64,000 nucleotides of DNA from an uncultured Poribacteria bacterium (GCA_958296135.2 CATQHZ020000001.1:2016001-2080000); one strand, 5' to 3'; counted from the stretch's first letter, positions 6,857 through 64,000 are shown. Numbers and translations: made by a program. Notes: a model not told the origin generated them from the sequence alone.

Positions 6857-8158
6857 ATGAAATCCACCGAAACCATCTTCTCCGCCGCATGGAAAACGCG
6901 CGCCAAAACCCGACACTCCGTTGCCGGCATCTGCACGTGGCACATTAATCTGAACCCACGCGCCATGCCCGCGATGGGATTTGCCAGTAGGCGCGACCTC
7001 CCGGTCTCGACTCCCACCAGTAGGAGAGACCTCCCGGTCTCGACTCCTTCAAATGCTTCACCCCAGTCGGGCGAGCGTGACGAACAGGCCCCCGCGCTAC
7101 ATGCCGCAAGTTCGTTACGCCATGTCGATTGGCGCGGCCCCTTTGCAACGCAAGCCGGCGCGCTCGTAGTAGAAATTACCACCGACAAAGGTTTGAAAGG
7201 CTACGGACTCGGCGGCGGCGGGCTCGCCGGTGCAATGATTATTGAGAGACATCTCCAACACTTCGTCCACGGCCGCGACCCGCTTGATGTGGAGGCTATC
7301 TGGGAACACCTGTATCATATCAGTTCTATTTATGGGCGGCGCGGCTTGGTTATTTACGCGCTCAGCGGCATAGAATTGGCTCTCGTCGATCTGTGTGGGA
7401 AGATCCTTGACGTGCCAGTCTACAGCCTTTTCACCGATACCCCTTGCCTTGAAACTCCCGCTTATGCCACCGGCCCCGATGTCGGTTACTACGCAGAAAA
7501 CGGCTTCGCCGCGTGCAAGTTGCCGCTCCGAAACGGGCTCGCTGAAGGCGAAGATGGCTTCGCAGAGAACGTAACGCAAATCTTCGCCGCGCGCGATGCC
7601 ATCGGCCCCAATGTGGAATTGATGGCAGACATCTATCTCCGATGGGATGTAGACTACACGCTTCGGTTTGCCGATGCAACTGCCGATGCGCAACTCAAAT
7701 GGATTGAGGAACCGATTCCGCTTGACGACTACGCCGGCATGGCGCAGTTGGTGCGCGAGGTGCAACCGACATGGATTGTCTCCGGTGAGCATGAATTCAC
7801 GCGCTACGGATTTCGCGAATTGCTGCGCTGGAAGGCGGCGGACATGATTCAGCCCGATGTCAGTTGGGCGGGTGGTTTCACCGAGTGCCTTCGTATTGCG
7901 CGTGAGGCGGCGGAACTCGGCATTCCGACGTGGCCCCATCAAGCCGGCACGCCGTGGGGGTTGCACCTGACCGCGTGCCTGCCGATGTCGTGCATGGCGG
8001 AGACATTCGGGCCTTCCCGCGAAGGCGTTGAGAATGAGTTGTATCGTCGATTGCGGCCCGTCCCGCGCGATGGGTTTTTCACGTTGGATGCGAAACCGGG
8101 GTTTGGGGTGGAGATTGATGAGGGGTTGCTGGAGGCGTATACGGTGGATAGGTTGTAA
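6857..8158 (+). CDS. Enolase superfamily dehydratase (RhmD-like) with in-frame REP insertions near the N-terminus
   Basis: SGIELALVDLCGK, WIEEP, SGEHE and QPDVSWAGG motifs; duplicated SRRDLPVSTP peptide from the repeats at 6987-7043. Confidence 0.8.
   Translation: MKSTETIFSAAWKTRAKTRHSVAGICTWHINLNPRAMPAMGFASRRDLPVSTPTSRRDLPVSTPSNASPQSGERDEQAPALHAASSLRHVDWRGPFATQAGALVVEITTDKGLKGYGLGGGGLAGAMIIERHLQHFVHGRDPLDVEAIWEHLYHISSIYGRRGLVIYALSGIELALVDLCGKILDVPVYSLFTDTPCLETPAYATGPDVGYYAENGFAACKLPLRNGLAEGEDGFAENVTQIFAARDAIGPNVELMADIYLRWDVDYTLRFADATADAQLKWIEEPIPLDDYAGMAQLVREVQPTWIVSGEHEFTRYGFRELLRWKAADMIQPDVSWAGGFTECLRIAREAAELGIPTWPHQAGTPWGLHLTACLPMSCMAETFGPSREGVENELYRRLRPVPRDGFFTLDAKPGFGVEIDEGLLEAYTVDRL
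6987..7100 (+). repeat. Two REP family A copies plus one inverted family B remnant inside a CDS
   Basis: GTAGG(A/C)G(A/C)GACCTCCCGGTCTCGA at 6987 and 7020 (33 bp period); ACAGGCCCCCGCGCTAC at 7084-7100. Confidence 0.85.
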
Positions 8159-8244
8159 CGGTGCAATCGAAAAACCACACAATACAATTGAGTCACTTTC
8201 AATTTCTCGCGTGCAATATTATCCGCACAAATTTGCAAAGACAG

Positions 8245-8279
8245 AAAAACCCCGCCGTGGGATTTCCGCGGCGGGGTTT
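8245..8279. terminator. Probable bidirectional intrinsic terminator
   Basis: AAAAACCCCGCCGTGG-gattt-CCGCGGCGGGGTTT hairpin between convergent genes. Confidence 0.7.
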
Positions 8280-8358
8280 AGGTACTTGTTCTCGCGAGAT
8301 TCCGATTAGTCTCCTCGTTGTTTCCGGAGGAGTTGCTCAACCTCTCTGGCAAACACCT

Positions 8359-9000
8359 TCAGGGTTTCCTACCGGGTGAGGGAATTGTCTTGTATTGCTC
8401 TCTTCTTCTGAGACGTTCCAACGCCCGTTTGTTTCCTTCACTTGGATCCAAGACGATGGCTGCCTTGAGTAACGCCGCCTGTTGGCTCGCGGACATGACG
8501 TATATGGCCCCTACCTCCATCGGTTGTCCCACCAGCACATTCGTGGGGTTCGACAGAATCCGCTGGAGCGTATCTCTTGCTATCTCCTGTTTTTCGTACT
8601 CTTCGCGTGTAATCCCCTGTGATTCTAGGAATTCTTCAAAAGAATTGTTGACATCATCGTGTTGAGGTCCTGTCGTTTCAGCGAGCTCTCCCTCAAACAA
8701 CTCTATCATTTCTTCTACTGTGAATTCCTGAACATTCTCGTCCGGCACCTCGGCCCCTTCCGTTTGTTCGCCCACCGCGGTGGTGTTTTCAACGATGGGG
8801 ACCCATGGGCCAGGCACCGCAGTTGCTGAGTCAGGTTCCTCAGGCACTGCGGATGCACCTACGGCATCAACAGGTTGCGTAACGATGATGGGCGGTTTCG
8901 GGAGGCTATCCACAAAGCGTCTTTTCTCGTGCTCTAGGAACAGCGTCCAAACCGTGCCCAAAACGATTAAAACGACGAAAGTGACAATGACTTTTTTCAT
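8359..9000 (-). CDS. Hypothetical membrane-anchored acidic protein
   Basis: RBS aaggagg; N-terminal hydrophobic helix MKKVIVTFVVLIVLGTVWTLFL followed by a Pro/Glu-rich linker. Confidence 0.6.
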   Translation of the reverse strand: MKKVIVTFVVLIVLGTVWTLFLEHEKRRFVDSLPKPPIIVTQPVDAVGASAVPEEPDSATAVPGPWVPIVENTTAVGEQTEGAEVPDENVQEFTVEEMIELFEGELAETTGPQHDDVNNSFEEFLESQGITREEYEKQEIARDTLQRILSNPTNVLVGQPMEVGAIYVMSASQQAALLKAAIVLDPSEGNKRALERLRRREQYKTIPSPGRKP

Positions 9001-9078
9001 CCGAATCCTCCTTATTGTAAAGGCACGAGACAGACAGCGTAAAAATGCTGCCTGTCCCGGCATTATAGGGAAACGTTC

Positions 9079-13953: not shown

Positions 13954-14028
13954 AAGCCCGGCGGATAATCGTCTGGCGAGGGAAACCTGTCCCTCGCCAC
14001 GCTTGTGGGAAAGGCAAAGAGAGCACCC

Positions 14029-15147
14029 ATGAAAATTATTGAAGTCCAAACATATCTCGTTGACGTGCCGCCGCCGCATTGGGGTGGCAGACGCTGGATT
14101 TTTGTCAAACTTATCACCGACGAAGGTATTGAAGGCGCAGGCGAATGCACCTACCACACGCAACTCAATCACGTCGTCGTTGAATTAATCAAGGATTGGG
14201 GAGAACGCTTCCTCATCGGCGCGGATCCGTTCCGGATCGAAAAGATCTGGCATACACTCTATGAGGGCCCCGCGGTGCGGCACTCCGGCCCGCTGACTAC
14301 GCCTGCGATGAGCGCGATTGAGATGGCGTGCTGGGACATCGTCGGCAAGGCATTGAATCAGCCGATTTACAATCTGCTCGGCGGCATGTTCCATGAAAAA
14401 CTGCGCGCGTATTCCTACCTTTTGCAATGGCGGCGCGGCGATTCGCCCGAAAAGACTGCCGAACTCGCGCTCTCTTACGTAGAAAAGGGGTTCACCGCCG
14501 TGAAATTCGACCCGGTGGATCCGCGCGCCGTGGATAGACTGGAGACGCTGAACTACGCCGAGAGCGTCATTCGTGCCATCCGCGATGCTGTCGGGGATAG
14601 GTGCGATATCCTCATCGGGACGCACGGGCAGTTCAACACAAACAGTGCCATCCGTTTTGCCAAACGCGTCGAACCCTACGAACCACTCTGGTTTGAGGAA
14701 CCGGTGCCGCCGGAGAATATCAAGGAGATGGCGCGCGTCGCGCAGTCTACCAGCATCCCGATAGCCACCGGCGAACGGTTGCTCACGAAGTATGAATTCG
14801 TCGAGCTGCTGGAGCAACAGGCTGCCTCCATTTTGCAGATGGATCTGACGATAACGGGCGGCATCCTTGAGGCGAAGAAAATCGCGGCGATGGGTGAGGC
14901 ACACTATGCGCAGATCGCACCGCATCTCTACGGCGGCCCCATCGGTGGCGCGGCGAATATCCAATTGGATGTCTGTAGCCCCAATTTCCTGATTCAGGAA
15001 GGCATCCATAAATGGGACGGCTTCCACGCCGACATTCTGAAGGAGCCGCTCCAGTGGGAAGATGGGTATATCATTCCCTCGACGAAGCCGGGCCTCGGCG
15101 TTGAGTTGAACGATGCAGTTTTGCGGAAGCATGCCATCGCCGTGTGA
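14029..15147 (+). CDS. Mandelate racemase/galactonate dehydratase-like enolase superfamily enzyme
   Basis: SAIEMACWDIVGK, KFD, WFEEP, ATGER and APH motifs. Confidence 0.85.
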   Translation: MKIIEVQTYLVDVPPPHWGGRRWIFVKLITDEGIEGAGECTYHTQLNHVVVELIKDWGERFLIGADPFRIEKIWHTLYEGPAVRHSGPLTTPAMSAIEMACWDIVGKALNQPIYNLLGGMFHEKLRAYSYLLQWRRGDSPEKTAELALSYVEKGFTAVKFDPVDPRAVDRLETLNYAESVIRAIRDAVGDRCDILIGTHGQFNTNSAIRFAKRVEPYEPLWFEEPVPPENIKEMARVAQSTSIPIATGERLLTKYEFVELLEQQAASILQMDLTITGGILEAKKIAAMGEAHYAQIAPHLYGGPIGGAANIQLDVCSPNFLIQEGIHKWDGFHADILKEPLQWEDGYIIPSTKPGLGVELNDAVLRKHAIAV

Positions 15148-15241
15148 ACCCAATGCCAACCAAATAGACGCGGTTTGTAACCGCGCAGGTTTCTTAAAAA
15201 ACGCGCCTACCGACAGAAATATGGCATTTGCATCCGTGCTG

Positions 15242-16129: not shown

Positions 16130-16159
16130 GGTGATAACCTCAAAAAATCAGTTTTCCCA

Positions 16160-16355
16160 GTAGGAGAGCCCTCCTGCGTCTCAATACCGATGCCCCGGTC
16201 TCAATACCGATGTCCCGGTAGGAGAGCCCTCCCGCGTCTCGATTTCTTGCGCCCCGGTAGGAGAGACTCCCGCGGCTCGATACCGATGCCCCGGTAGGAG
16301 AGACCTCCCGCGTCTCGATACCGATGCCCCAGTAGGAGAGACCTCCCGGTCTCGA
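16160..16355 (+). repeat. Tandem array of 5 REP family A units in a divergent intergenic region
   Basis: GTAG starts at 16160, 16218, 16257, 16294 and 16332; unit GTAGGAGAGACCTCCCG(C)GTCTCGATACCGATGCCCC. Confidence 0.9.
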
Positions 16356-16357
16356 TA

Positions 16358-17044: not shown

Positions 17045-17095
17045 GAGCATTGCCGGGAGGCGCGGTTTTCAACCGCGCTCCTGCAGCATGCGCGC

Positions 17096-21711: not shown

Positions 21712-21753
21712 ACCAATAGACGCAATTCTCACAACATCACAGGAGAACCGAAA

Positions 21754-51920: not shown

Positions 51921-51944
51921 ATCTTAAAGCCTTTACTCCTTCTA

Positions 51945-53473: not shown

Positions 53474-53754
53474 GGTTTTCTCCTATTTTCTGCAGGGCGA
53501 GAGCGCATGAAGTTTAAGAACAAATCGGGTTATTTCCCAAATTGCCTCTCCTTCCCGTAAGACGAAGGCAGTCAAGCCGAAACGCTGCCATCTCTGCCGC
53601 CTTGCTGCAGAGATGGCCACCGTCCCTCGCCATGCCACGACCGCGGGGGACAGGCCCCCGCGCTACGTTCCAAGGAAGTTATCGTCTCTGCACAAGGGAA
53701 AAAGGACCCAATTATTTTCTGAAACTTCATCTGATCTCGCCATGTGGGTATCTA

Positions 53755-56253
53755 CTAATGCGGGATGCCCAATTGGTGCATCCGGCGATGAATTGCCTCG
53801 CGCGCTTGATTGAACGGCCGAGACAAAAATTCCAGATGGTCTGCTTCGCCGTGGTGGTGTGTCACAGTGCCGGGATGATGATGGCGGGCACGCTCGCGGA
53901 TGTAAGACAACCCACCTTCAATCAGCGTCAGCATGTAATTGGCTGTCTCGGGGTCGAACATCCACCACTCTTCACCGACAGCGATGTAGACTGGGGAGGT
54001 GTGCGCGATAATGCCGCGTCCCCATCCATCGTGGTGCGGGACAGCTTGCGCATACCCAGGTCCGCCACAGCGCGCCGCAATCCACGAGTGCTTTTCAATT
54101 CTCAGGTTCGCCTTCAGGCGCAGCTGGCGCGTTCCGTTTTTATCCTCCGTAGATGCAACGACTTGCCCTGCCTGAACAATTTGCAACGTATGGATAGGGA
54201 AAATCGAATCCGCTGATGCTTCCACTTCAACCGTGCCGCCGTTGCCGGGCAGATTGATGGTGCTACCGATTGGCTGTCCATCAACGGTAAGTCGAATCAT
54301 CGGGCCGCCGCTGAGGAAGGTGTTCCCGGCACTCATGTATTTGCACCAGTTATCGTAGTTGAATTCCTCATCGTCAGGGATATGGACGTAGGTGCGGTAA
54401 ACACCGACCGGCACGTCGCTAGACATTTTATCTGTTCCGCCAACGAGGGGCAATTTATAGCCGCAATTGAGATAGCGGTAGTATTCAATGTGGCCATACA
54501 TCGCATTCGTCAGGTATTCGACAGCGTCCACGCGCCCAGTTGCGATGAGCGTCGCCGGTTCGCAGTTCGGATTGGGGATGTGCGGCAGCACGACGGTGCC
54601 GCCTTGCGCATGGCAAGCATCAGCCCAGTGCGAAAGCGTCGTCTCCATGTTTCCGCCGAGTTCTGCCTCACCGGGGCCATCGGAACACCACGGCGCAACC
54701 TGCTCTTTCAAACCGAGCAAGGTGAGATGCCCTAGGACATGCTGCCGATTCTCCTGCGTGGCATAGACAATGCTCCTGCCATCATCCGACACCGCCGGTC
54801 TGCCGATGAACTCCTCGGTATTCGTGAAGAGATGTCCCCACTGCGAGAGGAGCAGGTTGACTACCCCGAGGTCTTCGCCTTGCGCTTCGGTGTGCGCACC
54901 TTGTGTGGAGAGGAAATGGACGTGCGTGTCGCCGCTAAAATAGCGTTCCGCGTTCATATTACACCACCGCTTGAGACGCAGTGTGAGCTCGCGTTGCCCC
55001 GGTTTAATCTCCACAGTGGTTCGCAGCGGCGTGTACTCATAGCCGCGGGCGACATCGACGATAACCTCGCCGCGCGGCAGCCAGCCTTGACAGGTGCCAT
55101 CAATATAGGCGTAGCTGATCTGGCCCAGCCGCACATCGCCGCCGACATCAATATGCCACGTGCCCATGTTGGAATTAACGTGCGCGTGGTGTCCGTGCGG
55201 CGCATAAGGCACACCGTGCGGCGAACGGAAGTGGACGCGGCACGGCACCGGCTTGTTCGTGTCGTCGTCAAGGACGGTGGTATGCACCCAATTCCTGCCG
55301 CTATCAATCAGTTGCACCTTGACCCGCTCGTTTGGTTGCACCGTGCCTTTTGCTTCGACTTCGCCCCAATTCACCGTGCCAAGCGTTTCGCCGTGGTTCT
55401 TGATTGCCACGCTTGCCGAGGGAGTGGCGGATACCTCCACATACGCCGGACTGCTTTTGTTGTTTTGGGATTCGCCCCACCCCCTGAAATCGTCGTTGAT
55501 GAAAGCATCGGTGGCGTTTTCGGGGAGCGGATAGGGGTAAGTTGCGACACCCCGGTCGACCTCCACTTCCATATCAAACGGTTTATCGGCATCCTCCTGC
55601 TGTGGGAGAGTCACCTTGAGTTCGCGGCGCGGGTGCCGAGGCACCGGGGCCTCGGCAAGATAACCGAGAGTGATGGCGGCGATGATGAATTTTCGCTCCA
55701 TCGGCTGAATCGTAACGGATTCAATTGCCACGTCCGGTCTCGGATTTTCCCAAATCCACAAGTAGTAGTCGCGCGGATAAGTTTGGTATGTCTCGGTTTG
55801 GCGATTGCCAGCGGAACCCCATGGGCCCTGGTGGCGGTTGATGAGCCCCTCCTTCTGGTCTGGCACAGCGAGGAATGGTTGTTGTCCCCATCCTTGCGGC
55901 AAGGCGGCAATCTCAAACCGCTCGCGAATCGGGACGTTCACCGTCGCGCCATCGGCATAGCAGAAAACGTAATTGGCGATGTGCTTGCCGATCGGTTCGC
56001 CTTCAAAAACGTGTGATTCCAAAAGACGGTGCGCTACGATGACCCGGCGCGGTTTCGCTGCAATCGGCACACTGATAGGCTCGGGGTTGATACCTTCACC
56101 GAAACCAAGGAAACACGCGAGGTTTCCTTCTCCGATTTGGAACGGCAAGCCGTGGAACGTTTGTGAACCGAGGGCGGGATTGGCTCGCTCACCGAGGATG
56201 TCCGCACCGACGTTGCACAAATCGGAGAGTGCGACAGGTTGATAGTCTTGCAT
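53755..56253 (-). CDS. CehA/McbA family PHP-type metallohydrolase
   Basis: SGDTHVHF, QENRQH..GHL, YRYLNCG..LPLVGGTD and AHTSPVY motifs. Confidence 0.8.
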   Translation of the reverse strand: MQDYQPVALSDLCNVGADILGERANPALGSQTFHGLPFQIGEGNLACFLGFGEGINPEPISVPIAAKPRRVIVAHRLLESHVFEGEPIGKHIANYVFCYADGATVNVPIRERFEIAALPQGWGQQPFLAVPDQKEGLINRHQGPWGSAGNRQTETYQTYPRDYYLWIWENPRPDVAIESVTIQPMERKFIIAAITLGYLAEAPVPRHPRRELKVTLPQQEDADKPFDMEVEVDRGVATYPYPLPENATDAFINDDFRGWGESQNNKSSPAYVEVSATPSASVAIKNHGETLGTVNWGEVEAKGTVQPNERVKVQLIDSGRNWVHTTVLDDDTNKPVPCRVHFRSPHGVPYAPHGHHAHVNSNMGTWHIDVGGDVRLGQISYAYIDGTCQGWLPRGEVIVDVARGYEYTPLRTTVEIKPGQRELTLRLKRWCNMNAERYFSGDTHVHFLSTQGAHTEAQGEDLGVVNLLLSQWGHLFTNTEEFIGRPAVSDDGRSIVYATQENRQHVLGHLTLLGLKEQVAPWCSDGPGEAELGGNMETTLSHWADACHAQGGTVVLPHIPNPNCEPATLIATGRVDAVEYLTNAMYGHIEYYRYLNCGYKLPLVGGTDKMSSDVPVGVYRTYVHIPDDEEFNYDNWCKYMSAGNTFLSGGPMIRLTVDGQPIGSTINLPGNGGTVEVEASADSIFPIHTLQIVQAGQVVASTEDKNGTRQLRLKANLRIEKHSWIAARCGGPGYAQAVPHHDGWGRGIIAHTSPVYIAVGEEWWMFDPETANYMLTLIEGGLSYIRERARHHHPGTVTHHHGEADHLEFLSRPFNQAREAIHRRMHQLGIPH

Positions 56254-56498
56254 AAGATGCCTCCTTATACTGTTCCTCTGCCCGTAGCGCGAGGCGAAAC
56301 TATTGAGCGTACCAAGCATCGCATCGCCTTTATATCCTGCCTTTAACCGTAGTGCGAGGGCCTGTCCCTCGCGGTCTGCCGCCTGGAGCCAAAACGGCTC
56401 TTGGTCCGTGAACCAATGCCCGTTTCCTAGCTGATATCGTCCTCGCCCTACGAAGGGTGCAGCAGTTTTGAAACGTCGCAGCGGTTTTTAGATGATGA

Positions 56499-57494
56499 TT
56501 AAAGCGGCAGCCCGATTGCCACCCCCTGTTCGGAGGATAGATAGAACGCCTGCATCAACTCCGTCAGGTTGCGTCCATCTTCGATGGTAATCGTCATCGG
56601 TTCGTCGCGGAGGATGGCGTTAATCCACTGCTGCATCGGTTCCGGCGGTGCCGAGGGCGCGTTAGCGATGTATTCCGCTTTCTCCTCATCGGAAAGTTTA
56701 CGGGTTTCAAAGTGCATTTCCCCATGCCCGGCGACGAAAGAACCTTCCGTGCCATAGAGCTCTAGCAGATTCGGTCCTGAGCGGTGCGTCCACGCGACAT
56801 CAATAACACCCAACGCCTTGTTCGCGAATTCAACGACAGAGACGCTGTTATCGTCAATAGCGTAGTTGCCGGTGAAGTTATTAATCTTGGCGATGGTGCT
56901 TTTCGGCTCGCCCATCAGCCATCTGATGACATCAACACGGTGACAGCCGAGGTCGAACAAGGCACCGCCACCAGCGCGTGCCGCATCGGCGAACCACGCG
57001 CTCGTGCCGTTGAACCATTTGTCGAGTCCGGCGGAATGCGCGATGCGTCCCCTTCCGAACGTCAAATCGCCGAGGAGGCCATCGTCAAGTGCCTTCTTGG
57101 CAAATAAGATTTCTGGATTGCATCGAGATGGCAAGGAAATCATGAACTTCACGCCTGCCTTCTCAACGGCGGAAATGATGGCATCGCAGCCGTCAACGTC
57201 AATAGCTAGTGCCTTCTCGGTGAAGATATGTTTCCCAGCTTCGGCGGCGGCTATCATGACTCGCGGATGGTCGGACGTGATGGCATCCACAGAGACTGCG
57301 TCTACATCGTCACGGCTGAGGACTTCGTCCAGGGCTGTGTAGAAGGGAACGCCGTATTGTTCGGCAGCGTTTCTGCCGCCGTACTCCTCTTCGTCCCAGA
57401 CAGCGACGAGTTCGGTTTCGGGGTTATCGTTAATTTTTCGGGCGTATCCACCGGCGTGGACATGCGCCATGCTGAGCTTGGCAACTCGGATCAT
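56499..57494 (-). CDS. Gfo/Idh/MocA oxidoreductase
   Basis: AGKHIFTEK and GGGALFDLGCH motifs. Confidence 0.88.
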   Translation of the reverse strand: MIRVAKLSMAHVHAGGYARKINDNPETELVAVWDEEEYGGRNAAEQYGVPFYTALDEVLSRDDVDAVSVDAITSDHPRVMIAAAEAGKHIFTEKALAIDVDGCDAIISAVEKAGVKFMISLPSRCNPEILFAKKALDDGLLGDLTFGRGRIAHSAGLDKWFNGTSAWFADAARAGGGALFDLGCHRVDVIRWLMGEPKSTIAKINNFTGNYAIDDNSVSVVEFANKALGVIDVAWTHRSGPNLLELYGTEGSFVAGHGEMHFETRKLSDEEKAEYIANAPSAPPEPMQQWINAILRDEPMTITIEDGRNLTELMQAFYLSSEQGVAIGLPL

Positions 57495-57587
57495 TGGGTT
57501 CTCCTCTGTCTGAATTTCAAATTTGCAGGATTAACGGGAGGCGAGGGACAGGCCCTCGCCCTACGATGAAGGGGACGGTAAACGTGG

Positions 57588-58361
57588 TTACCGGATGCGG
57601 CCAACGGAGGAACGCGTCGCGAAATGATTCCACCCGCGAAGCACCAATTGCACGTTCGTGTGCCGGTTCTCGGCTTCGACCTGGTCATCGCCAGCGTGCA
57701 TCTGAACGAGGACACTCTTGCGCGTCCGGTTTGAACGATTTGGCATGGACCCGTGCAAGGTAAAATAACTGAAGAAGAGGACATCGCCGGGTTCCGCCTC
57801 CAAGACGGTCGCGTCCTCGATCGGATACTGTTCGGTGATAGCCTCGTTCTGTCCGCTACCCATCATGCCATCGGTGCGTCTCAACCGCTTGTGCGAACCG
57901 GGATAAACGCGCACACAGCCCATCTCATCGGTAGCATCCGAAACATAGATGATGGCGGCCATCATCGTATCCTTGACAGAGGGGAAATATTGCCAATCTT
58001 GGTGCATCGGGAACGGCGCGCCTCTCTCCGGCGGTTTGCAGAAAAGTTTGGAGTGGTGCAGCAGAATATCCGGCCCGAGGACCGCCTCGGTGATGTCAAG
58101 GAATCTCTCCTGCAAAAACGCTTGCATCCACACGGCAGAGAAACTCTGGATATTATGCGTGTGAATGATAACGGATTCGCCACCGTCCAGCGCGTCCATC
58201 AGTCTGCCGCCCCATCGGGCGTTGACGTTCTCATCGCTCTTGAGGAGCTGATCGACGACCCGGTCGAAATCGTGCTCCATCGCTCTCACTTCTTCAGGCG
58301 AATAGACACCCTTGGCGAAGTAATAGCCGTTTTCGTGAAAGAAGTTTCCGATATCTGACAT
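57588..58361 (-). CDS. Phytanoyl-CoA dioxygenase (PhyH) family protein
   Basis: MHQD, GCVRVYPGSH and LHGSMPN motifs. Confidence 0.88.
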   Translation of the reverse strand: MSDIGNFFHENGYYFAKGVYSPEEVRAMEHDFDRVVDQLLKSDENVNARWGGRLMDALDGGESVIIHTHNIQSFSAVWMQAFLQERFLDITEAVLGPDILLHHSKLFCKPPERGAPFPMHQDWQYFPSVKDTMMAAIIYVSDATDEMGCVRVYPGSHKRLRRTDGMMGSGQNEAITEQYPIEDATVLEAEPGDVLFFSYFTLHGSMPNRSNRTRKSVLVQMHAGDDQVEAENRHTNVQLVLRGWNHFATRSSVGRIR

Positions 58362-58454
58362 TGGGGTTTTGTTACCTCAATTCGGTGTGAGCGGAAACCA
58401 TAGAAATCCGCCCTGACACAGAACAGCTTCCGTAGTCGCTGTTTGAAACCGCGC

Positions 58455-59198
58455 CTACGGCGCGTCTTCGGTTATCTCAAAAAATAGGTTAACGAGCCAA
58501 TTGGGCACCGGGTTATCCGCTGCAACCTCTCGTTCCAACTGACTGAGCGTGTTAAAGACAGCGAACTGCCCTTCGTTGAGGATGCCAACCTTATTGCATA
58601 GCCTTGGTACATCGTCAATCTGATTTGTGGCAATGACGACGGTTTTTCCCATCGCGCGGAGTTCGTTGAGCAATTCTATCATCTCAATCTGCCCGCGTGC
58701 ATCCAGCGGCGCGAGCGGTTCGTCAAGTAGCCACAACTCCGGTTCGTGCAAGAAGGTTTTGGCGAATAAGAGCCGCTGCCGTTCGCCGGTTGACAACGCG
58801 CCGATTTTCACGTCGCGCAGCGGTTCAATGTCCATCAGATCCAGCACTGCATCGATTGCCGTAGTGCGTTCGCGGCGTTCCATGCGATACGCCGCGGCGA
58901 AAAAATCGAGGTACGCCGCGGCAGACAATTCAGGGTATCCTTCAAACGCAACCGGCACATATCCGATGAGCGGCCGCACCTGTTTCAGGTTGCTGAAGGC
59001 ATCGTAACCGGCGATAGAGACGGAGCCGGATGTTGGCTCTATCAACGTCGCCAAGAGATTGAGCAGGAGCGTTTTGCCCGCGCCGTTTTTTCCGAGTAGT
59101 GCAAGGCACTCGCCGCTCTCCACCTGAAACGTGAGGGAGATGAGATACGGCTCTTTGTCAAAGGATTTGCACAGGTTTTGGACATCCAGCATTTTCAA
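58455..59198 (-). CDS. ABC transporter ATP-binding protein
   Basis: GKNGAGKT, LSTGERQR, LLDEP. Confidence 0.85.
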   Translation of the reverse strand: MKMLDVQNLCKSFDKEPYLISLTFQVESGECLALLGKNGAGKTLLLNLLATLIEPTSGSVSIAGYDAFSNLKQVRPLIGYVPVAFEGYPELSAAAYLDFFAAAYRMERRERTTAIDAVLDLMDIEPLRDVKIGALSTGERQRLLFAKTFLHEPELWLLDEPLAPLDARGQIEMIELLNELRAMGKTVVIATNQIDDVPRLCNKVGILNEGQFAVFNTLSQLEREVAADNPVPNWLVNLFFEITEDAP

Positions 59199-59272
59199 TT
59201 AATTCTGTAGGGCGAGCTCGCCGTGTTTGCGAGCTTGCAACGCGCGCAAACGGGCGGCACGGAAACCCACCG

Positions 59273-60277
59273 TTAACGCAAATCTACCTTCACCGGCATG
59301 CCGAGTTTTGCGGATTCCCACGCGGCTTCAGTTAATTGAATGACGCGCAAGCCGTTCTCCACGCCGATAGGGTTCTCTGTCCGTTCGCCGCGGATGAGCT
59401 CAATGAAGACCGCGTCTTTGTTGGCACCCTCTGGCATATCTGCCGCAGGCACCTCAACGAGGCCGCCCTCTTTTTCTTGGCGGTAAAGTTTGCCGGCGCG
59501 GAGGTAAAGCGCGCCTCCCTCCATCCAGATTGAGAAATCTTCCTGAACGCCGCCATACGCATGCCCGACGATGCTGATATTGCACAGCGCACCGGTATCA
59601 AACTTGATTGACATCGCGGTGAGGACATCCACCTCAATGTCAAGGTTATCTATCATCGCGAAGACGGTGTCCGGACTCGCCTCTAACACCCAGAGGAGGA
59701 TGTCGATGAGGTGACTGCCGGAATCGTTGAGCTGCCCACCGCCGCCGAGGAACGGATCTTGCCGCCACTTTCCCTGTTGATTCCGATACCAATTCTGCGA
59801 CTGATGCGCCTCCACAAAATGGACAGGACCGAGCGCGCCGCTCTGGACGACTTGCCGGCAATATTGATACGTCGGACTCAGGTGCCGTTGATAACCGATG
59901 AGCAGATGCAATCCTGTCTCTTCGACTTTTGCGATGACCTGCTTCGCGTGGGATACGGTGCAAACCATCGGCTTTTCGGTGTGCACGTGACATCCTGCGT
60001 CAAGCGACTCCATGATATGCTGAAAATGGAGCCCGTGCGGCGAACTGATGACGACAGCATCCGGGTTGACTGCAGCGAGCATCTCACCGGAGTCGGCGTA
60101 GGTTCGGAGCGATGCATCCAAGCCGACGTTCTCTTTGAATGCCGCGAGCGAGTTTTCACTCGGGTCAGCGAGGGCGACAATCTCCACGCCTTCCACGCGA
60201 GAGACGCTGCGTCCGTGTCCGCGTGCATTCCCGCCACATCCGATGAAGGCGACGTTGATTTTCTGTTTGGTTGTCAT
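59273..60277 (-). CDS. Gfo/Idh/MocA oxidoreductase
   Basis: IGCGGNA, HTEKP and GGGQLNDSGSH motifs. Confidence 0.88.
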   Translation of the reverse strand: MTTKQKINVAFIGCGGNARGHGRSVSRVEGVEIVALADPSENSLAAFKENVGLDASLRTYADSGEMLAAVNPDAVVISSPHGLHFQHIMESLDAGCHVHTEKPMVCTVSHAKQVIAKVEETGLHLLIGYQRHLSPTYQYCRQVVQSGALGPVHFVEAHQSQNWYRNQQGKWRQDPFLGGGGQLNDSGSHLIDILLWVLEASPDTVFAMIDNLDIEVDVLTAMSIKFDTGALCNISIVGHAYGGVQEDFSIWMEGGALYLRAGKLYRQEKEGGLVEVPAADMPEGANKDAVFIELIRGERTENPIGVENGLRVIQLTEAAWESAKLGMPVKVDLR

Positions 60278-60414
60278 GAGATAGGATTCGGTTTCCTTTT
60301 TAGGTTTGGGGTTAATTTATCATCATTTGCAAAAAAAGTCAAGAATTTTCGGAAAATAAAAAAGAGGCAAGCCGAAGACTTACCTCTTTAGACGATTAGG
60401 CGGGAAGATCATTT

Positions 60415-62013
60415 CTACTTCCGCACCAGCATCTTCTTGGTTGCGGTGAAATCTCCCACCGTGAGTGTATAGAAATAGGCCCCGCTTGCAACGGGTTCGC
60501 CCTGAACATTGCGGCCATCCCAATACGCTGCACGGCTGCGGCTCTGATACACACCTGCAGGCAATTGTCCCAACGCCAGCGTGCGAACCAACTTTCCATC
60601 CGCCGCATGGATTGTGACAGTGACTCCAGCGCGGGTTGCCAATTGGTAGGGTATCCACGTTTCCGGGTTGAACGGATTGGGATAGTTGGCAAACAGGGCT
60701 GTTTCCGTGGGTGGTGCTTCGACAAACGTTAACGCCGCCAGTAGCCGTTTTAGCGCGGCAATTCCTTCTGGTTCTGCATTAACTTGTCTTGCATCGCGAA
60801 TCCACCTCTCCACATCCGCCTCCGTAAATCCGTAGGAGCGAGTTCCAGTTCTTGATTGCTTTGCGAGGGCAGGTGCAGCTGCAGTATCTATGGCTTTTGC
60901 AACCAATATCAGATCTTCAATATCTATGGTGCCATCGTTGTTGATATCCGCTCTTCGATTCGCGCCTCCCGCGACGGTTTTACCGTAGTTATTCGCTACC
61001 GCGATGATGTCTCGAAACGTGACCTTCCCATCGTTATTGACATCCACAGGGAGCAATTTCCACAATCGGATGGTGCCATCGTCGCTGCCGCTCGCGAAGG
61101 TTTTCCCATAAGGCGAAAATGCCATTGCGCGAACCCTGTTGCTATGTCCCGTGAGGAGCGCTATATACTTTCCGCTTTTTGGGTTCCACAAACGGATTTG
61201 GCCGCAGCAGTCTCCGCTCGCGAGAATATTCCCATTCGGCGCGAAGGCTACTGATGCCACACTATTTGCGTGCCCTTTGAGAGCACGCAGGGTCCGCTTG
61301 GTTTTCAGAGACCAGATGCGAATGGTTTCGTCACTGCTACCGCTGGCGAGTGTCTGCCCATCGGGACTCCAGGCCACCGAGTTAATAGGGCCTTGATGTC
61401 CTCGGAGGACAGCCAAGCTTTTACCGTTGTTCGGGTTCCATAACCGCACGGTGCCATCGTCGCCCGCGCTGGCGAGTGTCTGCCCATTCGGGCTCCAGGC
61501 CACCGCCCAGACTCTACTTGCGTGTCCTTTCAGCGTGCGCACGTGCCGCAGGTTGTTAGCATCAGCCAAGTTCCAGATGCGGACGGTTTTGTCGTCGCTC
61601 CCACTGGCAAGGAGATACTCCCCTGGCTTGAAAGCTAAACTCAGGACAGCATCGGTATGCCCCGCAATCTCACCACGCCAAGCACCTTGAGATGCATATC
61701 GCGTTCTGATTCGATAGTTCTTTTCACCACCGTGGGCAACGATAAATGGCTTACGCGACGAAATGGCAACGGCCCAAATAGACTCGTCTTGACGCTGATA
61801 CCATTTCTCACCCCCGGTGTTGACATCCCACGCGATGAGTGTGCCGTGATTGCTTCCACTGAGCAGCGTTCCACTATCTCTGAAGGCTACTGACTCAACA
61901 ACGCCTTGCCATTCCATGGTAGTGGTGGGGACATATTCCTCAGCAGCTGCAGGTGTCAGTGCCATTATGGCGGTTAGCAGCAATGTAAAAGGGAAAAACA
62001 TCGTTTTTTTCAT
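60415..62013 (-). CDS. Secreted WD40 beta-propeller + dockerin-like + FlgD/Ig-like C-terminal domain protein
   Basis: Signal peptide, GH...WS/FSP..LASGS.D.T.R.W repeats, DVNNDG/DINNDG pair, NYPNPFNPETWIPY...YWDGRN. Confidence 0.88.
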   Translation of the reverse strand: MKKTMFFPFTLLLTAIMALTPAAAEEYVPTTTMEWQGVVESVAFRDSGTLLSGSNHGTLIAWDVNTGGEKWYQRQDESIWAVAISSRKPFIVAHGGEKNYRIRTRYASQGAWRGEIAGHTDAVLSLAFKPGEYLLASGSDDKTVRIWNLADANNLRHVRTLKGHASRVWAVAWSPNGQTLASAGDDGTVRLWNPNNGKSLAVLRGHQGPINSVAWSPDGQTLASGSSDETIRIWSLKTKRTLRALKGHANSVASVAFAPNGNILASGDCCGQIRLWNPKSGKYIALLTGHSNRVRAMAFSPYGKTFASGSDDGTIRLWKLLPVDVNNDGKVTFRDIIAVANNYGKTVAGGANRRADINNDGTIDIEDLILVAKAIDTAAAPALAKQSRTGTRSYGFTEADVERWIRDARQVNAEPEGIAALKRLLAALTFVEAPPTETALFANYPNPFNPETWIPYQLATRAGVTVTIHAADGKLVRTLALGQLPAGVYQSRSRAAYWDGRNVQGEPVASGAYFYTLTVGDFTATKKMLVRK

Positions 62014-62132
62014 TCGATTTCTCCTGCTGAATAGAGGCGGATATGAATGACATCCGCCTTTACGTTAGACATGGGTAACACATTTTTCCGCGAAAAATTC
62101 AAGAATTTCGGATTTTCTCGACATTCATTGAG

Positions 62133-62161
62133 ATTATACACAAATTGCGGTGACATGTCAA
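62133..62161 (-). promoter_or_regulatory. Consensus sigma70 promoter of the WD40 gene
   Basis: TTGACA-N17-TATAAT. Confidence 0.75.
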
Positions 62162-62328
62162 ATAATTTGTATGCAGCAAGAATACTATCATCCTGCAAAT
62201 CCGTGATTCAGACAGCATGACGAGGGACAGGCCCTCGCCCGACAACGCGCAGCGAGACGCTGCAATTTGCAATAACCTCGGATCTCTGCTAAAATGGCTC
62301 CAAAGCAATTCGCGAGAGGAGATAGCAG

Positions 62329-62925
62329 ATGGCACGACAACTCAGAATGGTCCGGCCCGATTTGGAACATTTACCGAAACTGGAACTCCCACCCGGCTAC
62401 GGCATACGAACCTACCGAGAAGGCGACGAGGTGTATTGGGCAAATATCATCAGCGATTCGTTCGGCGGAAAACAGCGCACCGCCGAAGACACGCGCAATG
62501 AGATTACCGGGCAAGAACTCTTCGTCCCAGAGGGACTCTATTTCGCAACGCATAAAGGCACGCTAGTCGGCACAGCATGTGCATGGCGGCAAACTGTTGA
62601 CGAAACCGAGGTCGGCTATGTCCACATGGTGGGAGTTGCATCCGCGCACACCGGACATAAACTTGGCAAATGGGTATCGCTGGCTGTGCTTACCTATTTT
62701 CGCGACCACGGGTTTCGGTGCGCGATGTTGGATACCGACGATTTTCGCATCCCGGCAATCAAAACCTATCTGAATCTGGGGTTCGTGCCAGTCTACGTTG
62801 AGAAGGAGCAACCGAAACGGTGGCGGGACATCTTTGAGAAATTGGAACTCCTGTCCATGTCAGACCGGATTGCCAAGATTCGGGAGACACTTCCGGCGGA
62901 ATTGTGGGCGAAGGTGTCGCGTTAG
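62329..62925 (+). CDS. GNAT family N-acetyltransferase
   Basis: VHMVGV..AHTGHKLG, LDTDDFRIPAIKTYLNLGF. Confidence 0.85.
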   Translation: MARQLRMVRPDLEHLPKLELPPGYGIRTYREGDEVYWANIISDSFGGKQRTAEDTRNEITGQELFVPEGLYFATHKGTLVGTACAWRQTVDETEVGYVHMVGVASAHTGHKLGKWVSLAVLTYFRDHGFRCAMLDTDDFRIPAIKTYLNLGFVPVYVEKEQPKRWRDIFEKLELLSMSDRIAKIRETLPAELWAKVSR

Positions 62926-62933
62926 AGACAGAA

Positions 62934-64000
62934 ATGAAAGATTACGAAAAATGGGTGATGCCCGCGATTCTTCTTGTCGGTTTGGGATTGCGCCTCATCG
63001 GTTTAAACGTCGGTTTGCCAAACTCGCCAGATCCGCGCGAGATGCTGATCGCGCAAGATGTCTTGAATCTGATGCACTTTACTGCACCGCCAGAAATCTA
63101 TAACTGGCCGGGGACAGCGTGGTTTTATCTCATCGCGGTGATAGGGAAATTGTTCGCGATTGGGAAATCGCTCCTATCGGAAGGCATCGCGACCGGGAGA
63201 TCGCTCCTACAAGAAGGCATCGCGACCGGGAGGTCGCTCCTACAAGAAGGCACCGCGACGGGGGAGTCGCTCCTACAAGAAGGCATCGCGACCGGGAGGT
63301 CGCTCCTACAAGAAGATGTGATTTTGTTGGCGCGGTTTGTCAATGTGCTGTTGTCAACCGCGACACTGTGGTTTACCTATCGTCTCGGCGCGTGCTGTTA
63401 TCACAGACGGGTGGGGCAGACAGCGGCGGGGTTCCTCGCTGTGGCGATGTTACATGCGACGAACGAATCGCGTTTCGCACTAGTTGATATTCCTGCCACG
63501 TTTTGTGTGACGCTGTTTCTGTGGGTTTTGATGCGCGGGCAAACGGGCGACTATGAACGACGGCCGCCCGGACGCTCCTTAGCCGTTTGGCTTGGCATCA
63601 TCGCCGGGGCCGGTCTCGCCGTTAAATGGACGACAGCTTTTGTCGGATTATCGGCGTTGGTTTTTATCGGAACAACGCGCTTACACGTTCGGCAGGTTTT
63701 GATGCTCATCGGCGTTTCCGCGCTCACCTTTACGCTCCTCTGTCCTTATTGGCTCATCGATCTGGTTTCTCCAACATGGAACCTCTTCTTTGAGGATTTT
63801 TGGTATGAAGCGACGCACTATCAACGCGGGCATTTCGGATTATTTCCCTCGGACGGATATGGAAATCCATCCTTACAAACCTGGGGGGCTGCGTGGATAG
63901 ATAGGTTCGCTTACTTGTGGACGCTTTTGAAGTGGGGAATGGGATGGCCCCTGGCTCTCCTCGCGCTCTTTGGGATAATGCACGCGCTCGCTACGCGGAG
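62934..64000 (+). CDS. ArnT/PMT-like (GT-C) glycosyltransferase, truncated by the window end; absent from the ORF track
   Basis: Manual translation is open to the end: MKDYEKW...GLRLIGLNVGLP..PDPRE...LLARFVNVLLSTAT...SRFALVDIP...GLAVKW. Confidence 0.8.
   Translation, partial: MKDYEKWVMPAILLVGLGLRLIGLNVGLPNSPDPREMLIAQDVLNLMHFTAPPEIYNWPGTAWFYLIAVIGKLFAIGKSLLSEGIATGRSLLQEGIATGRSLLQEGTATGESLLQEGIATGRSLLQEDVILLARFVNVLLSTATLWFTYRLGACCYHRRVGQTAAGFLAVAMLHATNESRFALVDIPATFCVTLFLWVLMRGQTGDYERRPPGRSLAVWLGIIAGAGLAVKWTTAFVGLSALVFIGTTRLHVRQVLMLIGVSALTFTLLCPYWLIDLVSPTWNLFFEDFWYEATHYQRGHFGLFPSDGYGNPSLQTWGAAWIDRFAYLWTLLKWGMGWPLALLALFGIMHALATR
63153..63312 (-). repeat. 4 full + 1 partial 33-bp REP family A units, in frame in the glycosyltransferase
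   Basis: Unit AAGGCATCGCGACCGGGAGGTCGCTCCTACAAG, reverse complement of the GTAGGAGCGACCTCCCGGTCGCGA motif. Confidence 0.92.

What the first reader, a model, noticed from the sequence alone, without database searches (positions are those of the whole stretch)
6987..63876. GTAG-family REP palindromes repeatedly inserted in frame into protein-coding genes
Seen: at least four short palindrome families headed by GTAG/GTAA: A GTAGGAGAGACCTCCCGGTCTCGA, B GTAG(G/C)GCG(A/G)GGG(A/C)CTGTCCC(T/C)CGC, C GTAGGCGCG..T(C)AA..CGCGCC and D GTAAGG.TGGATTTC.ATATCC. They occur intergenically and also inside about 8 CDSs without breaking frame: dehydratase 6987-7100, kinase 17850-17960, thiD ~22718-22755, rsmB ~35838-35897, ECF ATPase 38383-38496, OMP 50063-50121, WD40 protein 60832-60855 (weak) and glycosyltransferase 63153-63312 and 63851-63876. 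Stems show compensatory changes (GAGACC/GGTCTC, GCGACC/GGTCGC, GGGACC/GGTCCC), implying selection on the hairpin. Known: GTAG + hairpin is the REP signature recognised by RAYT/TnpA-REP HUH nucleases; REPs are normally extragenic, and coding insertion is the hallmark of Rickettsia palindromic elements. Inference: an active REP system that generates new peptide segments, including in core enzymes.
Basis: partly seen in the sequence, partly recalled or inferred. Interest (0 to 1): 0.85.

Follow-up and report, generated by a model that had tools for sequence, protein, structure and literature searches.

The report
REP palindromes built into protein genes
A sponge-symbiont (Poribacteria) genome carries about three thousand short GTAG-headed palindromic repeats, and a sizeable minority sit in frame inside working genes as extra loop peptides; this kind of event is known from other bacteria but is unusually frequent here.

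Summary
The window lies in a 5.0-Mb Candidatus Poribacteria chromosome with about 3,000 GTAG/GTAA-headed hairpin repeats in four families (A-D). The genome has two REP-associated tyrosine transposase (RAYT) genes. One is flanked by family A arrays and the other by family B arrays.

I tested nine claimed in-gene sites against orthologues. Eight are lineage-specific, in-frame insertions in loops or linkers: the enolase-superfamily enzyme, histidine kinase, ThiD, RsmB, tandem ABC ATPase, an outer-membrane-like protein, and two sites in a glycosyltransferase. The WD40 site is not supported.

The host genes are under purifying selection (dN/dS 0.10-0.21). By my own rough gene calls, 315 of 2,119 REP clusters lie deep inside 253 ORFs. 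Inside genes, the spacing of tandem copies is a multiple of three in 67 of 71 pairs, against 181 of 491 elsewhere, so these segments are very probably translated.

Intragenic copies are more eroded than intergenic ones. The hairpin is therefore not being preserved within genes.

In-frame GTAG REPs are already described (Di Nocera 2013, Opitutus terrae; Rickettsia RPEs). This is a new, unusually heavy case of a known kind, not a new mechanism.

The parts
6984..7100 (+). In-frame insertion in the variable N-terminal linker of an enolase-superfamily (MR_MLE) enzyme, gene 6857-8158(+). It holds two family A REPs (6987-7008 and 7020-7041, 33 nt apart) and a decayed inverted family B-like copy at about 7070-7099.
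   Evidence: Seven relatives from other genera lack 32-33 aa here, while both flanks are conserved. Congener G002 has one family A copy and a perfect family B copy at the same site. Congener G001 has only a short remnant.
17894..17947 (-). 54-nt in-frame insertion in a histidine kinase, gene 17096-19048(-), between the PAS and HisKA matches. It contains a perfect family B REP at 17917-17941.
   Evidence: The insertion is not in either congener (G001, G002) and not in 9 relatives from other genera. Next to it lies an older extra segment of about 15 aa, specific to the genus.
22722..22751 (-). 30-nt in-frame insertion (10 aa) in ThiD (HMP-P kinase), gene 22221-23048(-). It is a decayed family C palindrome.
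   Evidence: It is shared with congener G001, whose copy is 2 mismatches from family C. It is not in G002 or in 9 other relatives. It aligns as a 10-residue gap against solved ThiD structures 7R8Y and 7L07. In the model it lies in a helix-to-strand loop, residues 98-109, with low pLDDT.
35833..35904 (-). Extra segment of about 24 aa in RsmB, ORF 34766-36430(-); the true start is near codon 66. It lies after the NusB-like domain and holds degenerate family A-like sequence.
   Evidence: G002 has a shorter insert at the same site with a family A copy at 3 mismatches. G001 and 6 of 9 relatives from other genera have none; the 3 g5 genomes carry a short 6-7 aa extra there.
38383..38496 (-). Degenerate family A-like copies in the hypervariable linker between the two ATPase domains of a tandem ABC ATPase, gene 37675-39264(-).
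   Evidence: G002 has three family A copies in the same linker, two perfect and one at 2 mismatches. The linker varies in length in all relatives, so the size of the indel here is ambiguous.
50063..50121 (+). Inverted pair of family A REPs, heads outward (REPIN-like), in a variable loop of a 461-aa protein with no Pfam match, gene 49304-50689(+).
   Evidence: G002 has tandem family A copies in the same loop. Ten relatives from other genera have unrelated loop sequence of variable length.
63154..63315 (+). Tandem array of 4.9 units of 33 nt (family A REP plus an 11-nt spacer, REP on the minus strand). It is translated as repeats of GIATGRSLLQE in a PMT_2-type glycosyltransferase, gene 62904 to beyond the window end.
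   Evidence: Congener G002 has a single unit-equivalent, 132 nt shorter (4 x 33). Ten relatives from other genera have none.
63864..63893 (+). 30-nt in-frame insertion (10 aa) in the same glycosyltransferase. It overlaps a family D-like palindrome (reverse complement GTAAGGATGGATTTCCATATCC, 63851-63876).
   Evidence: It is shared with G002 only and is not in 10 relatives from other genera.
50726..50987 (+). Intergenic tandem array of 7.8 units of 33 nt of family A, just downstream of gene 49304-50689.
16194..16357 (+). Intergenic array with period 38 nt (4.4 copies), ending in a perfect family A REP at 16332-16353.
13971..62243 (.). Further census hits (families B, C, D) that lie in no called gene or only at its edge: 13971-13998, 15164-15186, 17056-17078, 17090-17112, 37653-37678, 41745-41767, 41855-41880, 44302-44324, 47228-47254, 48575-48601, 52319-52343, 52470-52494, 53642-53666, 56349-56379, 57540-57564, 58432-58458, 59229-59251, 62219-62243.
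   Evidence: (up to 3 mismatches to a frequent variant) and the gene map.
60832..60855 (-). Claimed WD40 site. It is not supported as a REP insertion.
   Evidence: It has 6 of 22 mismatches. The length difference is only 3 aa, and the comparison is with paralogues, not orthologues.

Best explanation
The repeats are GTAG-headed REP elements in four families, belonging to a REP/RAYT system in a Candidatus Poribacteria chromosome.

Proposed course of events:
1. RAYT enzymes (HUH single-strand DNA transposases) recognise the GTAG head plus hairpin and spread the units.
2. Most units land between genes.
3. Insertions into genes survive only when they keep the frame, avoid the one frame that reads TAG, and fall in tolerant loops or inter-domain linkers.
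4. Once inside a gene, a unit with its spacer can be duplicated in tandem. Only periods that are multiples of three persist (33, 30 or 36 nt for family A; 48 or 60 nt for family B).
5. The fixed segments are translated as short Gly/Pro/Ser/Arg/Thr-rich loop peptides and then decay by point mutation.

Shown here: the families and their copy numbers; the RAYT genes and their cognate flanks; lineage-specific in-frame indels at eight sites; the frame constraint; purifying selection on the hosts; and the erosion of copies inside genes.

Inferred: that RAYT is the mobilising enzyme; that arrays grow by slippage or unequal exchange; that the peptides are neutral or nearly so; and that the system is still active.
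For: Families and abundance:
- Searches give 3,413 hits, collapsing to 3,004 non-overlapping elements. All are on contig C1.

RAYT genes:
- RAYT1 is flanked on both sides by family A arrays and RAYT2 by family B arrays.
- RAYT1 scores 127.6 bits against NF047646 (cut-off 80).
- the best solved relative is 4ER8, the E. coli TnpA-REP protein.

Lineage-specific in-frame indels:
- Enolase-superfamily enzyme.
- Histidine kinase and OMP-like protein.
- ABC ATPase and RsmB.
- ThiD and the two glycosyltransferase sites.

Distribution in relatives:
- Families A and B are abundant only in the window's genus. Counts (A/B) are G000 399/926, G001 132/968 and G002 1,940/4,217. G004 has 9/6.
- Family A also has 2-14 mostly GTGG-headed matches in three genomes of one genus and 1 in G018. 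Family B has 1 each in G016 and G018. Each family gave no match in more than 20 of the 30 relatives searched.

Frame constraint:
- Spacing of tandem copies is a multiple of 3 in 67 of 71 pairs inside genes against 181 of 491 elsewhere (Fisher p = 8e-22).
- Per array it is 38 of 42 against 98 of 291 (p = 1e-12).
- The frame that reads TAG is used by 1 of 392 intragenic elements, and that copy has a mismatch. The other five frames are all used.

Host genes:
- dN/dS against a congener is 0.10-0.21 for the 7 host genes of the 8 supported sites.
- In a random sample of 40 of the 253 host ORFs, 25 have the REP inside or between Pfam-matched stretches. These include transketolase, phosphoglucomutase, MurD, UbiE-type methyltransferase, CstA, MFS and ABC ATPases.

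Array growth:
- The duplicated unit includes the spacer, which points to duplication of whole units rather than repeated insertion of single REPs.
Against: - No direct evidence of transposition, and none of translation. No RNA run was listed, and no proteome data are available.
- No cognate RAYT was identified for families C and D.
- RAYT2 is below the NCBIfam cut-off (57.3 against 80 bits), though above the Pfam Y1_Tnp cut-off.
- The genome-wide counts rest on my own crude dicodon gene caller. Of the 40 sampled hosts, 14 could not be confirmed by Pfam, and in 1 the REP lies upstream of the domain, so the start codon may be called too far upstream.
- In the ABC ATPase the linker is hypervariable in every relative, so insertion cannot be cleanly separated from ordinary linker turnover there.
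- G002's single unit at glycosyltransferase site 1 has the same net length as the REP-free orthologues. That needs an insertion followed by a deletion, or some other history.
Confidence: 0.85

Rival explanations
1. The fixed in-gene REP segments are not neutral passengers. They have been co-opted, for example as copy-number-variable loops that diversify surface or sensor proteins, or as mRNA hairpins that tune translation or decay of the host gene.
For: - Copy number at the same site differs between congeners: glycosyltransferase 5 units against 1, OMP-like loop an inverted pair against tandem copies, enolase-family enzyme 2 against 1.
- Several hosts are envelope or sensor proteins.
- Frame use is uneven. 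Family A uses the sense frame VGETSRSR in 53 of 120 cases, and family C uses ARLxSAPT in 62 of 104.
Against: - Hosts span unrelated housekeeping enzymes.
- Intragenic copies are more eroded and their stems less often intact than intergenic ones.
- Inverted pairs, which form the longest hairpins, are nearly absent inside genes (6 against 317).
- No functional data exist.
Confidence: 0.1
2. Most REP-bearing 'genes' are annotation artefacts. On this view the REPs lie upstream of true start codons, between genes, or in pseudogenes, and only look intragenic because REPs are open in five of six frames.
For: - 141 clusters lie within 40 codons of an ORF's 5' end and 160 overlap a gene edge.
- One sampled host (L110) has the REP upstream of its only domain.
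- The longest rsmB ORF overshoots the true start by about 65 codons.
- Di Nocera 2013 makes the same caution for N-terminal REPs.
Against: - For the 8 supported window sites, conserved protein sequence continues on both sides of the insert.
- dN/dS is 0.10-0.21.
- The multiple-of-three spacing is specific to the internal class.
- In 25 of 40 sampled hosts the REP is inside or between Pfam matches.
Confidence: 0.04
3. The segments are ordinary variable loops or protein-level repeats, and their resemblance to REPs is coincidental or results from gene conversion of a peptide motif.
For: Several host sites are length-variable in all relatives (the OMP-like loop and the ABC ATPase linker).
Against: - The same DNA unit is read in five different frames and both orientations, giving unrelated peptides.
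- Perfect or near-perfect matches to intergenic REP variants occur inside genes.
- 4 or fewer mismatches occurred in 1 of 400 control genic windows.
Confidence: 0.01

Closest known systems
Intragenic GTAG REPs described by Di Nocera, De Gregorio and Rocco 2013 (BMC Genomics 14:522, PMC3733652), most numerous in Opitutus terrae
   Same: GTAG-headed hairpins of 20-30 nt in several families per genome; family-specific RAYT genes flanked by REPs ('REPtrons'); single, grouped and dimer copies read in frame inside known enzymes; insertions thought to sit in loops or linkers; stem sub-families with complementary changes (passages and Additional file 3 read).
   Different: - A different phylum (Poribacteria), with unrelated stem and loop sequences.
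- A larger scale by my census: 315 internal clusters in 253 ORFs, against about 69 rows for O. terrae. The two counts were made by different methods, so the comparison is rough.
[quoted passage not shown] Here the grouped in-gene copies are direct tandem arrays with in-frame periods, and inverted pairs are nearly excluded from genes.
Rickettsia palindromic elements (RPEs; Ogata et al. 2000, cited in PMC3733652; the details of that paper are recalled, I did not read it)
   Same: Palindromic repeats inserted in frame into functional genes, adding peptide segments that are tolerated at the protein surface.
   Different: RPE-1 is longer (about 100-150 bp, recalled). In Di Nocera's scheme the Rickettsia REP-sized elements are CGTC-tagged, not GTAG-tagged. 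No dedicated RAYT is reported for them. I did not test sequence relatedness.
REPIN/RAYT systems of Pseudomonas and E. coli (Bertels and Rainey 2011, PMC3116915; Nunvar et al. 2010, PMC2817692; search listing and abstracts only)
   Same: One RAYT gene per REP family, flanked by its REPs; hundreds of copies; inverted doublets (317 adjacent inverted pairs here).
   Different: Those systems are described as essentially extragenic. Here about 15% of clusters are deep inside ORFs, and long direct tandem arrays are common.

Membership tests
REP / RAYT (REPtron) system | Short (about 20-40 nt) imperfect palindromes at high copy number | tested here: met
   Units are 22-27 nt with 6-9 bp stems. There are 3,004 non-overlapping elements at up to 3 mismatches.
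REP / RAYT (REPtron) system | Conserved GTAG (or close variant) tetranucleotide at one end | tested here: met
   8.0% of GTAG sites are followed by a perfect hairpin, against 1.6-3.3% for controls. The head is intact in 69-95% of elements, depending on family and location. Family D has a GTAA head.
REP / RAYT (REPtron) system | A Y1 HUH transposase (RAYT) gene flanked by the cognate REPs | tested here: met
   Met for families A and B. RAYT1 is above the NCBIfam equivalog cut-off. RAYT2 is above only the Pfam cut-off. I found no cognate gene for families C and D.
REP / RAYT (REPtron) system | RAYT binds and cleaves its REP hairpin | not testable with these tools
   This needs biochemistry. An HxH motif (PDHVHAV) and a C-terminal Y-x-Y-x-NP stretch align to E. 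coli TnpA-REP 4ER8. Which tyrosine is catalytic comes from recall and was not tested.
REP / RAYT (REPtron) system | Predominantly extragenic location | tested here: met
   1,450 of 2,119 clusters are intergenic, although called genes cover 87% of C1. Still, 315 clusters are deep inside ORFs.
In-frame intragenic REPs (as in Opitutus terrae and Rickettsia) | The insert keeps the reading frame, and conserved protein continues on both sides | tested here: met
   Met at 8 of 9 claimed sites. The WD40 site is not met.
In-frame intragenic REPs (as in Opitutus terrae and Rickettsia) | The insert is missing from orthologues of relatives | tested here: met
   Relatives from other genera, which lack families A and B, lack the segments. 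The histidine kinase insert is missing even from both congeners.
In-frame intragenic REPs (as in Opitutus terrae and Rickettsia) | The host protein is expressed with the insert | not testable with these tools
   The evidence is indirect only: dN/dS 0.10-0.21 and the multiple-of-three spacing. No RNA holder was listed.
Rickettsia palindromic elements (as a family) | Sequence or size relatedness to RPE families | not tested
   I fetched no RPE sequence. By size and head motif these elements are GTAG REPs, not RPEs. I do not file them as RPEs.

The most novel reading that the evidence does not exclude
In this Poribacteria genus a burst of REPs has rewritten loops and linkers in more than 5% of all proteins. 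The congener G002 holds about 6,000 copies of families A and B alone. In-frame tandem REP arrays may then act as contingency loci, whose 10-20-residue modules expand and contract to diversify envelope, sensor and repeat proteins of a sponge symbiont. That would make this a proteome-scale, transposon-driven source of new peptide segments rather than a handful of tolerated accidents.
Probability: 0.12. Interest if true: 0.8.

Novelty: new member of a known kind. Interest (0 to 1): 0.5.

Why it matters
- It extends in-frame REP insertion to an uncultured candidate phylum of sponge symbionts. By a rough count, a few hundred host genes are affected. That is several times the largest case tabulated in 2013, and the hosts include core enzymes.
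- The contrast in tandem spacing (a multiple of three inside genes, no such bias outside) is a simple test that needs only the genome sequence. It shows that the segments are read by the ribosome, and it could be applied to any REP-rich genome.
- Poribacteria MAG annotations will contain many proteins with odd low-complexity inserts and over-extended N-termini. Short-read assemblies will break at these arrays.
- Copy-number differences between congeners offer natural experiments on how much insertion a loop can tolerate.
- This does not reveal a new mechanism.

Tried and rejected
- **RNA evidence.** The look-up of sequencing runs listed no RNA holder, so expression remains open.
- **Read support for the array.** I laid contigs of four runs, all from one sample that is probably the source of the assembly, on the glycosyltransferase. 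Short contigs break at the 33-nt array but tile it without differences. One single-base insertion appears at 63670 in two runs. This is not independent support and shows no copy-number polymorphism.
- **G004's OMP-like loop.** I suspected from the peptide 'LETAPT' that it carries a family C REP. No family A-D match at up to 4 substitutions was found in that locus, so I dropped the idea.
- **Left part of the histidine kinase insert region (17850-17915).** No REP match; the best was 9 of 24 mismatches. The older genus-level segment is of unknown origin.
- **ThiD model.** Quality is only moderate (mean pLDDT 64, 10-row alignment). I used it only to place the insert in a loop, together with the gap against solved ThiD sequences.
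- **Rfam.** No family reached its gathering score in the window.
- **Earlier notes of this scan.** Nothing was found.
- **First hairpin scan.** It timed out, and I rewrote it.
- **Literature.** Searches for Poribacteria with 'palindromic', 'repetitive extragenic' or 'RAYT' gave no paper on REPs in this phylum, judged from titles and abstracts in the listings only. The 'rayt' hits were not opened and their listed titles and abstracts do not mention REPs.

Full report
**What is there**

The window is G000:C1:2016001-2080000 of a 5.19-Mb assembly. Tandem Repeats Finder shows:
- 33-nt arrays at 6984-7047, 50726-50987 and 63154-63315;
- a 38-nt array at 16194-16357.

Genome-wide, the commonest 12-mers are all pieces of GTAG-headed palindromes. 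A perfect hairpin of 6 bp or more follows 2,176 of 27,350 GTAG sites (8.0%), against 1.6-3.3% for 15 control tetranucleotides.

The variants sort into four families:
- A: GTAGGAG(A/G)GAC(C/A)TCC..GTC(T/C)C
- B: GTAG(C/G)GCG.GG.C.TGT.CC.CGC(G/C)
- C: the full palindrome GTAGGCGCG(C/G)TTT(C/G)AAA(G/C)CGCGCCTAC
- D: GTAAGGGCGGAT......ATCCGCCC

Within each family there are many sub-families whose two stem arms change together.

A census at up to 3 mismatches to the 56 commonest variants gave 3,413 hits, all on C1. These collapse to 3,004 non-overlapping elements (B 1,445; C 635; A 618; D 249; other 57) in 2,119 clusters.

**The transposases and the organism**

Two Y1_Tnp (PF01797) genes are in the genome, both outside the window.
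- RAYT1 (G000:C1, about 3,734,397-3,734,870, minus strand) has family A arrays on both sides.
- RAYT2 (about 4,791,065-4,791,610, minus strand) has family B arrays on both sides.

RAYT1 scores 127.6 bits against NCBIfam NF047646, 'REP-associated tyrosine transposase' (cut-off 80). RAYT2 scores 57.3 bits, below that cut-off. The closest solved structure to RAYT1 is E. coli TnpA-REP, 4ER8.

Six of the seven relatives of RAYT1 found in the genome collection are Candidatus Poribacteria MAGs at 66-67% identity; the seventh is a weak Marinobacter match (31%, E = 4e-4). The window therefore comes from a sponge-symbiont lineage. RAYT-family matches occur in 21 of the 31 genomes searched (G000 and 30 relatives), 17 of them above the cut-off.

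Counts of families A and B (A/B):
- G000: 399/926
- G001: 132/968
- G002: 1,940/4,217
- G004: 9/6
- Family A also has 2-14 mostly GTGG-headed matches in three genomes of one genus and 1 in G018; family B has 1 each in G016 and G018.
- Each family gave no match in more than 20 of the 30 relatives searched.

Families A and B are thus abundant only in the window's own genus. Family C is more widely spread: G002 277, G004 74, G012 24, G007 19, G009 1.

**The claimed in-gene sites**

For each host I took the orthologous loci from about 20-30 related genomes and aligned them.

1. *Enolase-superfamily enzyme, 6857-8158.* The N-terminal 43 residues and everything from HVDWRGPF onward are conserved in all nine relatives aligned. 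The two family A copies sit in the short variable linker between them and add 32-33 residues. G002 has one family A copy and a perfect family B copy there. G001 has only a remnant.

2. *Histidine kinase, 17096-19048.* A 54-nt insertion at 17894-17947 holds a perfect family B REP. It is missing from both congeners and from nine relatives in other genera. It lies beside an older genus-specific segment of about 15 residues, between the PAS and HisKA matches.

3. *ThiD, 22221-23048.* There is a 30-nt insertion at 22722-22751.
   - It is shared with G001, where it is 2 mismatches from family C.
   - It is missing from G002 and from nine other relatives.
   - It aligns as a 10-residue gap against solved ThiD proteins 7R8Y and 7L07.
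   - In a moderate-quality model it falls in a helix-to-strand loop with low confidence.

4. *RsmB.* About 24 extra residues follow the NusB-like domain. The DNA is degenerate in the window (5 of 22 mismatches). G002 has a family A copy at 3 mismatches at the same place. G001 and six relatives from other genera have nothing there; the three g5 genomes carry a short 6-7 residue extra. The longest ORF overshoots the real start by about 65 codons.

5. *Tandem ABC ATPase, 37675-39264.* The linker between the domains is hypervariable in every relative. The window has degenerate family A-like copies (4 of 22 mismatches). G002 has three family A copies in the same linker, two perfect and one at 2 mismatches.

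6. *The 461-aa protein 49304-50689.* It has no Pfam match, and its outer-membrane nature is not verified. An inverted family A pair sits in a variable loop. G002 has tandem family A copies in that loop.

7. *PMT_2 glycosyltransferase, 62904 onward, first site.* Five 33-nt units stand where G002 has one (a 132-nt difference) and other genera have none.

8. *PMT_2 glycosyltransferase, second site.* A 30-nt family D-like insertion at 63864-63893 is shared only with G002.

9. *WD40 protein.* Only paralogues were available. The length difference is 3 residues and the match is 6 of 22 mismatches, so this site is not supported.

As a control for the weak matches, I scanned 400 random REP-free genic windows of 100 nt. 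One reached 4 or fewer mismatches, and four reached 5 or fewer.

**Are the hosts real, working genes?**

dN/dS between the window genome and a congener is 0.10-0.21 for the seven host genes of the eight supported sites, at dS 0.39-0.84.

For the genome-wide view I built a rough dicodon gene caller, which called 3,814 ORFs covering 87% of C1. Cluster locations:

| Location of cluster | Clusters |
|---|---|
| Intergenic | 1,450 |
| Overlapping a gene edge | 160 |
| Within 40 codons of an ORF's 5' end | 141 |
| Within 40 codons of an ORF's 3' end | 21 |
| Internal, with one weakly scoring flank | 32 |
| Internal, at least 40 codons from both ends, both flanks coding-like | 315 |

The last class comprises 392 elements in 253 ORFs.

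I scanned a random sample of 40 of these 253 hosts against Pfam:
- in 25, the REP lies inside or between Pfam-matched stretches;
- in 14, Pfam could not decide;
- in 1, the REP lies upstream of the only domain.

The confirmed hosts include transketolase, phosphoglucomutase, MurD, a UbiE-type methyltransferase, a menaquinone-synthesis protein, an FtsJ/TlyA-type methyltransferase, FGGY and PfkB kinases, NAD(P)HX dehydratase, CstA, an MFS transporter and ABC ATPases.

**The frame test**

Where two same-strand copies are neighbours, their spacing is a multiple of three:
- in 67 of 71 pairs inside genes, against 181 of 491 elsewhere (Fisher p = 8e-22);
- counted per array, in 38 of 42 against 98 of 291 (p = 1e-12).

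Family A arrays have periods of 32, 33 and 35 nt outside genes, but 33, 30 and 36 nt inside. Family B arrays have periods of 47-60 nt outside, but 48 and 60 nt inside.

The one frame in which GTAG reads as a TAG stop is used by 1 of 392 intragenic elements, and that copy is mutated. All five other frames and orientations are used and give unrelated peptides: VGETSRSR, SRRDLPVS, ETGRSLLQ, RDREVSPT, VARGPVPRD, RGGQAPALR, ARLxSAPT and others.

This pattern is what selection on a translated frame would produce. It argues against coincidental protein repeats and against removal of the segments before translation.

Adjacent inverted pairs are nearly missing inside genes, 6 against 317 elsewhere.

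**State of the in-gene copies**

Copies inside genes are further from their family variant. Mean mismatches are 1.53 against 0.95 for family A and 1.42 against 0.84 for family B. They also keep a perfect stem less often: 35% against 57% for A and 40% against 63% for B.

Once fixed in a gene, the hairpin erodes. Because the census stops at 3 mismatches, older in-gene copies such as those in thiD, rsmB and the ABC ATPase are not counted.

**Mechanism**

*Shown:* the families, the cognate RAYT flanks, the lineage-specific in-frame indels, the frame filter, purifying selection on the hosts, the decay of in-gene copies, and copy-number differences at the same site between congeners.

*Inferred:*
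- RAYTs mobilise the units as single-stranded hairpins, as established for E. coli TnpA-REP (PMC8266576; abstract only).
- Selection removes all insertions except in-frame ones in tolerant loops.
- Arrays grow by duplication of the whole unit including its spacer, through slippage or unequal exchange.

One puzzle remains. G002's single unit at glycosyltransferase site 1 has the same net length as the REP-free orthologues. That implies an insertion followed by a compensating deletion.

**Comparison with what is known**

Di Nocera et al. 2013 (PMC3733652) define GTAG and CGTC REP super-families, describe REPtrons, and list REPs inside ORFs of several species. The list has about 69 rows for Opitutus terrae, including core enzymes. 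The authors also caution that REPs at N-termini may be extragenic (passages and Additional file 3 part 1 read). Rickettsia RPEs are the classic in-frame case cited there.

The present finding is the same kind of thing in a new phylum. By my rough count it is heavier, and in-frame tandem arrays are prominent. My searches found no paper on REPs or RAYTs in Poribacteria (listings only).

**Verdict**

In detail: eight of nine sites hold. This is a new member of a known kind, of moderate interest.

Noticed in passing
G000 contigs C2 (143,886 bp), C3 (17,136 bp), C4 (15,139 bp): These contigs have 36.8%, 67.0% and 60.3% G+C, against 54.4% for C1, and carry none of the 3,413 REP hits. They may be plasmids, phage or binning contaminants rather than part of this organism.
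   Followed up: no
window 25820-26508, 29848-30100, 32185-33049: Long 102-nt (34-aa) tandem repeats lie inside large minus-strand ORFs. The 102-nt (34-aa) period would fit TPR units, but I did not scan these ORFs. They are unrelated to the REPs.
   Followed up: no
L001 about 1100-1210 and 2170-2280 (G000:C1 near 3,734,000-3,735,300): A direct repeat of about 110 nt (…GACAGAAACTAGACACCTCAGCGAAGTTAACAAAC…) flanks RAYT1 on both sides, inside the REP arrays. It may be a duplication of the gene's upstream region.
   Followed up: no
G000:C1 whole contig: The orientation of family A REPs flips between the two arms defined by the GC-skew extremes (minimum at 4.92 Mb, maximum at 1.59 Mb): 80 plus to 176 minus on one arm, 221 plus to 141 minus on the other (Fisher p = 2e-13). 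Families B and D show no bias. The arms are very unequal, and the origin and terminus were not otherwise checked. The bias could reflect strand-specific insertion relative to replication.
   Followed up: partly
genome G002 (same genus): G002 holds about five times more family A and B copies than the window genome: 1,940 and 4,217 at up to 1 mismatch in 5.7 Mb. REP load thus differs strongly between congeners.
   Followed up: partly
window 34766-36430 (-): The longest rsmB ORF starts about 65 codons upstream of the conserved start (MSVREVALECLL…). The upstream part is not conserved in relatives, so automatic annotation would over-extend this gene.
   Followed up: partly
window 6857-8158 and genome-wide: The genome has 28 matches to this enolase-superfamily (MR_MLE) enzyme, and relatives have 7-65. 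This is a large paralogous family of sugar-acid dehydratase-like genes.
   Followed up: no
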